IMG/VR virus record: IMGVR_UViG_2703718873_000026
DNA: 36,140 bases
Strand: one strand, 5' to 3'
Source: a virus
Taxonomy: Duplodnaviria; Heunggongvirae; Uroviricota; Caudoviricetes
The notes under the pieces: generated by a model
Told to the model about the DNA's origin: nothing
Seen by the model: the letters and a program-made list of their open reading frames with translations, nothing else
Database searches by the model: none
Part shown: positions 1,242-1,433 of the stretch, one piece after another
How positions within the stretch are numbered: the first letter of the stretch is position 1
Layout of the letters: the number at the start of each line of letters is the position of its first letter
Made by a program: the position numbers and the translations under genes

Positions 1242-1433
1242 TTATCGTGAGTTTTTAGTACAGATTTTTTTGGATTTACTAATAGTTCCATCATTGCAAA
1301 CGAATTTGCCATCTGAGGTACAGTGAGAAACACCTCCCTTTTTCCCTGAGCAGGGATAATTTCTAGCATAGGTAGTTAGTGGGTTTAATAACAAAGAACA
1401 TGACAAAACCACAAAAAATACCTTACCAAGCAT
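1242..1433 (-). CDS. small secreted cysteine-rich basic peptide (63 aa, predicted signal peptide), hypothetical moron
   Basis: ATG at 1431-1433 preceded by GGGAGGAAA; starts 16 nt after the cI stop, so probably co-transcribed cI-peptide-int. N-terminal hydrophobic stretch ending TYA|RN, then 4 Cys and many Lys. Locally AT-rich. Confidence 0.55.

What the first reader, a model, noticed from the sequence alone, without database searches (positions are those of the whole stretch)
1242..1433. Small secreted cysteine-rich peptide gene embedded in the lysogenic cI-int transcript
A 63-aa ORF with a strong SD (GGGAGG), a predicted signal peptide and a ~39-aa basic mature peptide with 4 Cys sits 16 nt after the cI stop and upstream of int, in a locally AT-rich stretch. 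Its position means it would be expressed in the lysogen, like a lysogenic-conversion moron (candidates: exclusion factor, toxin-like or bacteriocin-like peptide). I do not recognise the family.
Basis: partly seen in the sequence, partly recalled or inferred. Interest (0 to 1): 0.55.

Follow-up and report, generated by a model that had tools for sequence, protein, structure and literature searches.

The report
Prophage copy of secreted YdcA mini-protein
The 63-codon ORF is a real, strongly conserved gene for a small secreted, cysteine-knotted, very basic protein of the uncharacterised YdcA family. It rides directly behind the repressor gene of a 186-like E. coli prophage, is already annotated in RefSeq, and its function is still unknown.

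Summary
Window 1242-1433 (-) is a 63-aa ORF with a GGGAGG Shine-Dalgarno 5 nt before its ATG and 15 nt after the cI stop. It has a Sec-type signal peptide and a 40-aa mature part (4 Cys, net charge about +7), in a 34-36% GC stretch.

It is not an unknown family. It passes NCBIfam NF007463 (115.8 bits, cutoff 93), matches PHROG 6000 and Pfam PF27300. RefSeq calls the identical protein 'YdcA family protein'.

Across 32 alleles the ORF shows 15 synonymous versus 2 non-synonymous changes (p = 2e-8), so it is protein-coding, not an int leader.

Phage 186 has nothing between cI and int. Related prophages carry candidate defence systems there. Haemophilus phage HP2 and Yersinia prophages carry a YdcA homologue in the same slot.

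The only solved relative is Legionella Dis2, a disulfide-pinned outer-membrane-cap component of the Dot/Icm secretion system. The module is also fused repeatedly to secreted nucleases.

My best guess (about 0.4) is a lysogen-expressed periplasmic polyanion/DNA-binding mini-protein acting as an exclusion or protection factor. Function is inferred, not shown.

A conserved terminator-like hairpin sits directly before int, so 'cI-int transcript' is only partly supported.

Already known as a gene; moderate interest.

The parts
1242..1433 (-). CDS of the YdcA-family pre-protein (63 aa), identical to RefSeq WP_000900883.1
   Evidence: ORF list. NCBIfam NF007463 scores 115.8 bits against a cutoff of 93. 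PHROG 6000 at E = 1.9e-34. RefSeq annotation of the identical prophage. Synonymous to non-synonymous ratio 15:2.
1365..1433 (-). Signal peptide (residues 1-23, predicted cleavage TYA|RN)
   Evidence: Hydrophobic core and the -3/-1 rule. A23 is invariant while the rest of the N-terminus varies freely. AF2 predicts a helix at residues 3-14.
1245..1364 (-). Mature 40-aa peptide containing the 34-35-aa module [13 protein letters not shown]4[16 protein letters not shown] (4 invariant Cys)
   Evidence: Alignments A1, A5 and A6. AF2 pLDDT is 90-93 over residues 31-50. Net charge +6.8.
1439..1444 (-). Shine-Dalgarno GGGAGG, 5 nt upstream of the ATG
   Evidence: Read directly from the sequence.
1449..2018 (-). 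cI repressor gene (186 type). RefSeq start is at 2018; the ORF is open up to 2105.
   Evidence: Pfam Phage_CI_repr and Phage_CI_C. RefSeq annotation.
1182..1244 (-). Long imperfect hairpin beginning at the stop codon of the gene; part of a strongly structured 3' spacer
   Evidence: RNA fold of 1030-1260(-): -64.4 kcal/mol, z = -5.5.
1055..1083 (-). 13-bp hairpin AAAAAUGCUCUCU-ACU-GGAGGGCAUUUUU followed by U and the int ATG. It is terminator-like and sequesters the int SD (GGAGGG, 1062-1067).
   Evidence: It is kept in all 32 alleles, and changes fall in the loop or preserve pairing. The same 60 nt are conserved in prophages with other cargo in the slot.
1..1053 (-). Tyrosine integrase gene
   Evidence: Pfam Int_N and Phage_integrase. 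RefSeq annotation.

Best explanation
What is shown or nearly certain:
- The ORF is a genuine gene for a member of the YdcA family (Pfam PF27300).
- It was inserted as accessory cargo between cI and int of a 186-like (P2-family) E. coli prophage.
- It has its own strong SD 15 nt after the cI stop and no promoter or terminator in between. It must therefore be co-transcribed with cI from the lysogenic promoter(s) and be made in lysogens.

What is inferred from sequence and family:
- The pre-protein is exported by Sec and cleaved after Ala23.
- The 40-aa mature part folds in the periplasm into a small beta-hairpin knot held by up to two disulfides, like one lobe of Legionella Dis2.

Proposed mechanism (inferred, about 0.4):
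- The near-invariant, very basic module is a binding module for a universal polyanionic ligand, most likely nucleic acid.
- In the lysogen it acts in the periplasm as an exclusion or protection factor against incoming foreign DNA (superinfecting phage, conjugation or transformation).

Sub-confidences: real YdcA-family gene 0.97; expressed with cI in lysogens 0.8; periplasmic disulfide mini-protein 0.85; DNA/polyanion-binding exclusion role 0.3-0.4.
For: Identity:
- NF007463 above its cutoff, PHROG 6000, PF27300 and the RefSeq name.

Coding status:
- 15 synonymous versus 2 non-synonymous variant codons, binomial p = 1.9e-8.
- 8% of ORF columns vary against 21% of the 3' spacer.
- The mature module is almost invariant from Enterobacteria to Rhizobium, Comamonas and Neisseria, while the signal peptide varies freely.

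Accessory cargo expressed from the lysogeny operon:
- Phage 186 has cI overlapping int.
- Other cargo in the same slot matches PADLOC candidates PDC-S20 (KAP NTPase) and PDC-M11.
- A YdcA homologue sits directly after cI in HP2/S2 (unannotated, L003 3420-3602) and in Yersinia prophages whose cI is only 37% identical.
- 73 of 80 viral contigs show cI-ydcA-int.

Fold:
- AF2 gives pLDDT 83 overall and 90-93 in the core.
- The only solved relative is Dis2: phmmer E = 3e-5 and Foldseek top hits with probability 0.91-0.96.
- A Dis2 homologue carries the same Pfam PF27300.
- Dis2 is periplasmic, disulfide-pinned and lies next to the outer membrane (PMC8486379).

Ligand inference:
- The module is fused after a signal peptide to secreted nucleases of unrelated folds. 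Endonuclease_NS appears in 20 of the 120 best family hits. SNase, PLD-like and weak HNH fusions also occur, as do fusions to the PBCV basic adaptor.
- In HP2 the next gene encodes a secreted OB-fold (tRNA_anti-like) protein.
- The family recurs on elements that move DNA across envelopes. These include prophages of at least 5 genera, 4-5 kb mobilisable plasmids and a conjugation-derived T4SS.
- Net charge is +6.8 over 40 residues.
Against: - No experiment or direct computation shows DNA binding, export, disulfides or any exclusion phenotype.
- There is no PADLOC hit for the protein itself.
- In Dis2 the fold makes protein-protein contacts (DotK, DotC, DotD), not DNA contacts (PMC12716638).
- Phage DNA normally crosses the periplasm inside a conduit, so a free DNA binder may never meet it.
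- Nuclease fusions could equally reflect anchoring to the envelope.
- The chromosomal E. coli ydcA is linked only to acid or organic-acid tolerance (PMC7642389).
- In Moraxella and Acinetobacter phages the gene lies among structural genes, not in the lysogeny module.
- Only 5-6 of about 70 species-level genomic loci show the cI/int context.
Confidence: 0.4

Rival explanations
1. Envelope-machine adaptor. Like Dis2, the mini-protein binds outer-membrane lipoprotein or protein assemblies rather than DNA. Candidate targets are a phage receptor complex, a pilus or secretion machine, or the OmpA/Lpp-peptidoglycan network. By decorating such an assembly it alters envelope properties or blocks adsorption or injection by other phages.
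For: - Dis2 sits in the Dot/Icm outer-membrane cap and contacts DotK, DotC and the DotD N-terminus (PMC8486379, PMC12716638).
- Sequence and fold similarity to Dis2 and a shared Pfam family.
- The peptide is basic and could bind the anionic inner leaflet or LPS.
- Known small periplasmic or outer-membrane exclusion proteins exist (T4 Spackle, T5 Llp, Cor; from my own knowledge).
Against: - Near-invariance of the module across Alpha-, Beta- and Gammaproteobacteria argues for a universal ligand rather than a lineage-specific protein partner.
- The Dis2 lobes are the divergent members and have lost the K-rich motifs.
- Repeated nuclease fusions are not explained, except as envelope anchoring.
Confidence: 0.25
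2. Host-benefit stress factor. The prophage copy does what the chromosomal ydcA does, namely a periplasmic role in acid, organic-acid or envelope stress tolerance. It raises lysogen fitness rather than acting against other mobile elements.
For: - K-12/W ydcA is reported as acid-induced via YdcI, and its deletion sensitises E. coli W to 3-hydroxypropionate (PMC7642389).
- The prophage protein is about 57% identical to chromosomal YdcA (L056/L057).
- Chromosomal copies sit in stable loci next to cybB.
Against: - There is a single phenotype from one study and no mechanism.
- It does not explain the nuclease fusions or the enrichment on phages and small plasmids.
- Sister cargo in the same slot are defence candidates.
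Confidence: 0.15
3. Periplasmic metal-binding mini-protein. The four Cys plus the conserved His coordinate a metal (Zn or Cu) rather than forming disulfides.
For: - Invariant C-x9-C...C-x11-C with a near-invariant His before the second Cys.
- In Atlantibacter the downstream genes are PepSY_TM and DUF2946, families often seen in metal-related operons. That association is from my own knowledge.
Against: - The homologous Cys of Dis2 are seen as disulfides in the cryo-EM map (PMC8486379).
- The periplasm is oxidising.
- His is replaced in many members by R, K, G, Y or D.
- The PepSY context comes from one genus only.
Confidence: 0.05
4. Toxin-like or bacteriocin-like secreted peptide.
For: It is small, cationic, Cys-rich, secreted and AT-rich cargo.
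Against: - The leader is Sec-type, not a double-glycine leader.
- No immunity, processing or export genes are adjacent; the neighbours are cI and int.
- Sec alone reaches only the periplasm.
- There are stable single-copy chromosomal orthologues.
- The solved relative is a structural protein.
- The module occurs as a domain of larger enzymes.
Confidence: 0.03
5. Not a gene: the region is only a nucleotide-level regulatory leader for int.
For: The 3' 188 nt are strongly structured (z = -5.5) and contain a conserved hairpin over the int SD.
Against: - ORF substitutions are 15 synonymous to 2 non-synonymous (p = 2e-8).
- The ORF is less variable than the spacer.
- Protein homologues exist at 45-75% identity in unrelated DNA contexts and phyla.
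- The ORF persists when the spacer is replaced by a KAP NTPase gene.
Confidence: 0.01

Closest known systems
YdcA of E. coli K-12 (b1419) and the YdcA family (NCBIfam PRK10040 models NF007462-NF007464, Pfam PF27300, PHROG 6000)
   Same: - Same architecture: a variable Sec signal peptide followed by an invariant 34-35-aa four-Cys basic module, 55-65 aa in total.
- It scores above the curated cutoff of NF007463.
- RefSeq gives the identical protein this name.
   Different: - It is a prophage-borne paralogue, about 57% identical to the chromosomal copy. DNA identity is 75% over 100 nt.
- It is driven by a phage lysogeny operon instead of the cybB-ydcA-trg chromosomal locus.
- The family has no established function.
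[quoted passage not shown]
   Same: - Signal peptide followed by the motif CS-K-x-GG-[VI]-x-x-C ... [VL]-C-N-[DN]-G-x-x-S with the same spacing.
- It is the only solved structure hit by sequence (E = 3e-5 and 1.5e-5) and the top Foldseek hit (probability 0.91-0.96).
- A Dis2 homologue carries Pfam PF27300.
- It is periplasmic, disulfide-stabilised and close to the outer membrane (PMC8486379).
   Different: - Dis2 has two divergent lobes and five disulfides, lacks the K-rich motifs, and is a stoichiometric part of a T4SS. No T4SS is present here.
- The mature-only profile match is weak (E = 0.028).
Unannotated 60-aa ORF after cI in Haemophilus phages HP2 and S2 (NC_003315 2487-2669, complement)
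   Same: - Same family: [12 protein letters not shown]...KFICNDGSVSRSKQIC.
- Same slot: immediately after cI (start overlaps the cI stop), upstream of int in the pL operon of a P2-family phage.
   Different: - It is followed by an extra secreted OB-fold gene, orf1(S), before int.
- cI is only 33% and int 49% identical to the window's proteins.
- It is not annotated in the records.
P2-family accessory ('moron') cargo and defence hotspots (old, tin, Z/fun; hotspots of Rousset et al. 2022; the 'integrase-primase' hotspot in PMC13586616)
   Same: - It is variable cargo at a fixed position in otherwise syntenic prophages, with low GC.
- Sister prophages carry PADLOC candidate systems PDC-S20 and PDC-M11 at the same place.
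   Different: - The protein has no match to any PADLOC model.
- No promoter of its own was found; it borrows the cI transcript.
- It stays next to cI even when further cargo is added downstream.
T4 Spackle (Sp), a functional analogy only
   Same: It is a small Sec-exported periplasmic phage protein made to act on incoming competitors. This comparison is from my own knowledge.
   Different: - No sequence or fold relationship was found.
- Spackle inhibits a tail lysozyme.
- No exclusion phenotype is known for YdcA proteins.

Membership tests
YdcA family (NCBIfam NF007463 / PRK10040; Pfam PF27300) | Whole-protein HMM score above the curated cutoff | tested here: met
   NF007463 scores 115.8 bits against a cutoff of 93, covering residues 5-63 and model positions 1-58 of 58. 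Precomputed PF27300.1 is assigned to its 90% cluster.
YdcA family (NCBIfam NF007463 / PRK10040; Pfam PF27300) | N-terminal Sec signal peptide ending in Ala, followed by the module [10 protein letters not shown]3-C-x3-4-[FY]-x-C-x-[DN]-G-x2-S-x-S-K-x2-C with four invariant Cys | tested here: met
   All invariant columns (A23, P27, C28, S29, K32, G33, G34, C38, F44, C46, D48, G49, S52, S54, K55, C58) are present.
YdcA family (NCBIfam NF007463 / PRK10040; Pfam PF27300) | Export to the periplasm and disulfide formation | not testable with these tools
   Inferred from signal-peptide features and from disulfides seen in Dis2 (PMC8486379). No predictor or experiment was available.
Dis2 (Lpg0823) type T4SS outer-membrane-cap component | Sequence and fold similarity to a Dis2 lobe | tested here: met
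Dis2 (Lpg0823) type T4SS outer-membrane-cap component | Two tandem lobes pinned by five disulfides | tested here: not met
   There is a single module with four Cys in the mature part.
Dis2 (Lpg0823) type T4SS outer-membrane-cap component | Encoded in a genome with, and assembled into, a Dot/Icm-type T4SS | tested here: not met
   The window is a 186-like prophage with no T4SS genes.
Phage moron / lysogenic-conversion cargo | Present or absent among otherwise syntenic relatives at a fixed site | tested here: met
   Absent in phage 186, where cI and int overlap. Present in 590 of 5426 E. coli genomes. Replaced or joined by other cargo in sister prophages.
Phage moron / lysogenic-conversion cargo | Own promoter and terminator | tested here: inconclusive
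   There is no room for a promoter in the 15 nt after cI. Structured RNA and a terminator-like hairpin lie downstream. No transcript data are available.
Phage moron / lysogenic-conversion cargo | Expression in the lysogen and a host phenotype | not testable with these tools
   Expression is inferred from obligatory co-transcription with cI.
Known or candidate anti-phage defence systems (PADLOC-DB v2) | Match to a defence-system protein model | tested here: not met
   No PADLOC family at E <= 0.01 for the protein. Its slot-mates in other prophages do match (PDC-S20, PDC-M11A/B).
Bacteriocin / microcin | Dedicated leader (double-glycine) with adjacent immunity and export genes | tested here: not met
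   The leader is Sec-type. The neighbours are cI and int only.
Bacterial lipoprotein | Lipobox [LVI][ASTVI][GAS]C at the end of the signal peptide | tested here: not met
   VLSC at residues 9-12 lies too early and is not conserved. Many homologues have no Cys in the signal peptide, while the A|x cleavage context is invariant.

The most novel reading that the evidence does not exclude
The YdcA/Dis2 module is a previously unrecognised, universal extracytoplasmic nucleic-acid-binding mini-domain. Temperate phages of the P2 family (186-like, HP2, Yersinia prophages) and small plasmids express it from their maintenance operons. It would intercept or block foreign DNA in the periplasm, covering superinfection, conjugation or natural transformation. 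That would make it a new, single-peptide class of envelope-level exclusion. It would also explain why Dis2 sits in a conjugation-derived T4SS and why secreted nucleases carry the module.
Probability: 0.2. Interest if true: 0.7.

Novelty: already known. Interest (0 to 1): 0.4.

Why it matters
As a gene call this is ordinary. The identical protein is in RefSeq as 'YdcA family protein' and occurs in about 11% of complete E. coli genomes, including E. coli B/BL21.

What makes it worth a modest follow-up is that the family has no known function, yet it is among the most sequence-constrained small secreted proteins across Proteobacteria. Three threads found here give it a testable hypothesis:
1. Two or three distantly related P2-family lineages keep it directly behind the repressor gene, in a slot that otherwise holds candidate defence systems.
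2. Its only solved relative is Dis2, which the papers I read still describe as Legionella-specific with no structural relatives.
3. It is repeatedly fused to secreted nucleases.

If the DNA-binding or exclusion idea is right, it would do three things. It would assign a function to E. coli ydcA, explain an orphan T4SS component, and add a very small new kind of prophage-encoded protection.

Tried and rejected
- Local Pfam-A copy: no family hit for the protein, only a weak GULLO2-like_3rd match at E = 0.075. I treat that as noise. The family (PF27300) is newer than the local copy.
- PADLOC: no hit.
- Rfam: nothing in 950-2300 except a sub-threshold Phe_leader match at E = 0.46. I rejected it.
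- LDL-receptor class A repeats and potato type II proteinase inhibitors appear at E = 0.009-1. I treat these as convergence of cysteine patterns, because only the second half-motif aligns.
- lpg1681 family: E = 0.11, far below its cutoff. Rejected.
- Literature 'ydcA' of plasmid pS88 and of the gonococcal genetic island: these are unrelated genes that share a name, a methylase and a GGI ORF.
- Lipoprotein reading of C12: rejected (see membership test).
- Neighbour census in 72 species-level loci: no single conserved partner gene. Guilt by association gives only the phage/MGE enrichment.
- Small-plasmid operon partners (TraD-like, lipoprotein, 243-319-aa proteins): no informative Pfam hits.
- Consensus promoter scan: it did not find pL upstream of cI. 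In phage 186 pL is a weak promoter, so this is uninformative.

Full report

Yes. The ORF list gives a 63-aa ORF at 1242..1433 on the minus strand. Read on that strand, the sequence is ...AAA-TAG (cI stop, 1451-1449) tacc-GGGAGG-aaact-ATG. The start codon therefore follows the cI stop by 15 nt and a canonical Shine-Dalgarno by 5 nt.

The product is [63 protein letters not shown]. The first 23 residues have one Lys, a strongly hydrophobic core and T-x-A at -3/-1. The remaining 40 residues contain four Cys, nine basic and two acidic residues, with pI 9.7 and net charge +6.8.

GC is 34-36% here, against 45-52% in int and 52-60% in the tail genes. The neighbouring cI is just as AT-rich.

Upstream lies a 186-type CI repressor (Pfam Phage_CI_repr + Phage_CI_C). 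Downstream, after 188 nt, lies a tyrosine integrase.

**2. What it is**

- The protein scores 115.8 bits on NCBIfam NF007463 (PRK10040.1-2, cutoff 93).
- It matches PHROG 6000 (unknown function) at E = 1.9e-34.
- Its 90% cluster carries the precomputed Pfam family PF27300, which is newer than the local Pfam copy.
- RefSeq annotates the identical protein, WP_000900883.1, as 'YdcA family protein' in an identical prophage.

The 395-nt module between cI and int occurs at 80% coverage or more in 590 of 5426 complete E. coli genomes, including E. coli B derivatives. It also occurs in hundreds of IMG/VR viral contigs.

The window itself is a complete 186-like prophage inserted between rcdA and rybB/ybjL. 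It carries a retron Ec67-family reverse transcriptase.

**3. Coding or regulatory leader?**

I collected 32 distinct alleles of the module. Within the ORF there are 15 synonymous and 2 non-synonymous distinct variant codons (T20A, R24K). Only 23% of possible single changes are synonymous, so the binomial p is 1.9e-8.

Variable columns make up 8% of the ORF and 21% of the 3' spacer. Across the wider family the signal peptide is free to vary. The mature module, in contrast, is close to invariant from Enterobacteriaceae to Haemophilus, Moraxella, Neisseria, Comamonas and Rhizobium.

The ORF also survives when the spacer behind it is replaced by another gene.

**4. Anatomy of the locus**

In phage 186 itself, cI and int overlap by one base and nothing lies between them. 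Relative to 186, this prophage lineage has cargo in that slot.

I found four states of the slot:
- empty (phage 186);
- the YdcA gene (this window);
- the YdcA gene plus a KAP-family NTPase matching PADLOC candidate PDC-S20;
- a three-gene set that includes PDC-M11A/B.

[quoted passage not shown] The slot is consistent with that.

A YdcA homologue also sits directly after cI in Haemophilus phages HP2 and S2. It is an unannotated 60-aa ORF whose start overlaps the cI stop, followed by a secreted OB-fold protein and then int. The same arrangement occurs in Yersinia prophages whose cI is only 37% identical to this one. The cI-adjacent position therefore recurs in distant P2-family lineages.

The position is not universal. 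In Moraxella and Acinetobacter phages the gene lies among structural genes. Across about 70 species-level genomic loci only 5-6 have the cI/int context.

**5. The transcript claim**

With 15 nt and no promoter or terminator between cI and the ORF, co-transcription with cI is unavoidable. What happens afterwards is less clear.

The 231 nt from the stop codon to int fold far better than shuffles (z = -5.5). They end in a 13-bp hairpin (1055-1083) flanked by an A-run and a U-run, placed immediately before the int ATG. The int Shine-Dalgarno lies in its 3' arm.

The hairpin is kept in all 32 alleles, and substitutions fall in the loop or preserve pairing. The same 60 nt precede int in prophages with different cargo.

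The hairpin looks like an insulator, either a terminator or an SD-sequestering element, between the cargo and int. 'Embedded in the cI-int transcript' is thus only partly supported. The gene may be the last cistron of a cI-ydcA message.

**6. Fold and relatives**

AlphaFold2 with a 66-sequence alignment gives mean pLDDT 83, and 90-93 for residues 31-50. The model shows a one-turn helix, a beta-hairpin and a further bridge.

Searching PDB sequences gives one meaningful hit, chain AN of 7MUC/7MUD, at E = 3e-5 for the single sequence and 1.5e-5 for the profile. This chain is Dis2 (Lpg0823) of the Legionella Dot/Icm type IVB secretion system.

The aligned motif is specific: CS-K-M-GG-I-N-Y-C...R-L-V-C-N-N-G in Dis2 against [11 protein letters not shown]...KFVCNDG here.

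Caveats:
- Part of the score comes from the signal peptides.
- A mature-module-only profile gives E = 0.028, similar to LDL-receptor repeats.

Independent support:
- Foldseek ranks the two Dis2 chains first with homology probability 0.91-0.96, and the next hits drop to 0.06.
- A Dis2 homologue retrieved from the protein database carries the same Pfam PF27300.

I accept homology of the module to a Dis2 lobe. I do not file the gene as a Dis2: it has a single lobe, at most two disulfides, and no T4SS nearby.

**7. Clues to function**

The family has about 1450 clusters at 90% identity and 456 representatives at 50%.
- Besides the 55-65-aa single-module form there are 2-3-module proteins.
- Notably, there are proteins in which signal peptide plus module precede a secreted nuclease. 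Endonuclease_NS appears in 20 of the 120 best hits. SNase, a PLD-like domain and a weak HNH also occur, as do fusions to the basic 'PBCV adaptor' domain.
- The module also occurs on 58 plasmids, including 4-5 kb mobilisable plasmids of Acinetobacter and Psychrobacter where it is one of five or six genes.
- The chromosomal E. coli ydcA lies next to cybB. It is known only as acid-induced, and its deletion makes E. coli W sensitive to 3-hydroxypropionate (PMC7642389).

**8. Most likely mechanism**

Shown or nearly certain:
- It is a real YdcA-family gene.
- It is accessory cargo.
- It is transcribed with cI.

Inferred from sequence and homology:
- Sec export.
- Cleavage after A23.
- A disulfide-stabilised periplasmic mini-protein.

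Hypothesis (about 0.4): the extreme conservation of nearly every surface residue across three proteobacterial classes points to a universal ligand. The strong positive charge, the repeated fusion to unrelated secreted nucleases, the secreted OB-fold neighbour in HP2, and the association with elements that move DNA through envelopes all point to nucleic acid or another polyanion. In a lysogen such a peptide could act as an envelope-level exclusion or protection factor.

The main rival (0.25) is a Dis2-like protein or membrane adaptor that decorates an outer-membrane assembly. Lesser rivals are:
- a stress-tolerance role like the chromosomal copy (0.15);
- metal binding (0.05);
- a toxin or bacteriocin (0.03);
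- no gene at all (0.01).

None of these can be settled without experiments. The decisive experiments are listed in the next-steps field.

**9. Novelty and score**

The gene and its family are already in the databases, so the finding itself is 'already known'. I did not find three things in the searchable literature:
- the recurrence of the cI-adjacent slot across P2-family lineages;
- the YdcA-Dis2 relationship (apparently captured only by the Pfam model);
- the nuclease fusions.

These make a modest, testable story. Interest is 0.4.

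Noticed in passing
window 2204-2217 and 23377-23390 (segment about 2217-23390): Compared with intact relatives, about 21 kb of the prophage is inverted. One junction joins the first ~18 codons of the apl-like gene to a tail-fibre H gene lacking its C-terminus (2204..3262, -). The other junction lies next to the cII-side remnant. The two junctions share a 14-nt overlap, and a cix/gix-like sequence (TTCTCCCAAACCAA) lies nearby. This suggests aberrant inversion by the prophage's own tail-fibre invertase. Only 4 of the 84 genomes with full-length matches share this arrangement. 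It splits apl and H, so the prophage is probably locked in lysogeny.
   Followed up: partly
window 1055-1083 (-), with promoter-like TTGACA at 1101-1106 and AAAAAT at 1078-1083: A conserved 13-bp hairpin plus U-run lies immediately before the int ATG and sequesters the int Shine-Dalgarno. A promoter-like element would start transcription inside the 5' arm, giving a transcript with a free SD. This may be an insulator or switch separating int from upstream cargo. The same 60 nt are conserved in prophages with different cargo.
   Followed up: partly
window 14538-16478 (-): A 646-aa ORF is annotated in the identical RefSeq prophage as a retron Ec67-family reverse transcriptase/endonuclease, lying between the replication genes and the portal gene. 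The window is therefore a 'retronphage' of the phiR67 type. The msr/msd RNA was not detected at Rfam gathering threshold.
   Followed up: no
window 33363-33441 (-): The RybB sRNA gene (Rfam RF00110, 105 bits) lies right at the ogr-side end of the prophage. The element sits between rcdA and rybB-ybjL, so the attachment site may be at or next to rybB.
   Followed up: no
L166 1642-2973 (E. coli FDAARGOS_1251) and L171 2579-4783 (E. coli WP5-W18-ESBL-11): In sister prophages the same cI-int slot carries other cargo. One has a KAP-family NTPase (PADLOC candidate PDC-S20). The other has a three-gene set with PDC-M11A/B (an ASCH-domain protein) plus a DUF3644-like protein. The slot is a cargo hotspot expressed from the lysogeny operon.
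   Followed up: partly
L003 3420-3602 and 3612-4376 (Haemophilus phage HP2, NC_003315): HP2 and S2 have an unannotated 60-aa YdcA homologue whose start overlaps the cI stop. The next gene, orf1(S), encodes a signal-peptide-bearing tRNA_anti-like OB-fold protein. The pL operon therefore encodes two secreted proteins before int.
   Followed up: partly
proteins P0110, P0155, P0185, P0307, P0323 and others: The YdcA module is fused, after a signal peptide, to secreted nucleases of unrelated folds (Endonuclease_NS, SNase, PLD-like). It also occurs as 2-3 tandem copies (P0079-P0083).
   Followed up: partly
L172 640-816 (Acinetobacter soli pGFJ6, 4066 bp) and L173 2932-3105 (Psychrobacter pA40P1, 5371 bp): Very small mobilisable plasmids carry a YdcA homologue as one of five or six genes. 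It sits in a three-gene unit with a TraD-like protein or lipoprotein and an unknown 243-319-aa protein.
   Followed up: partly
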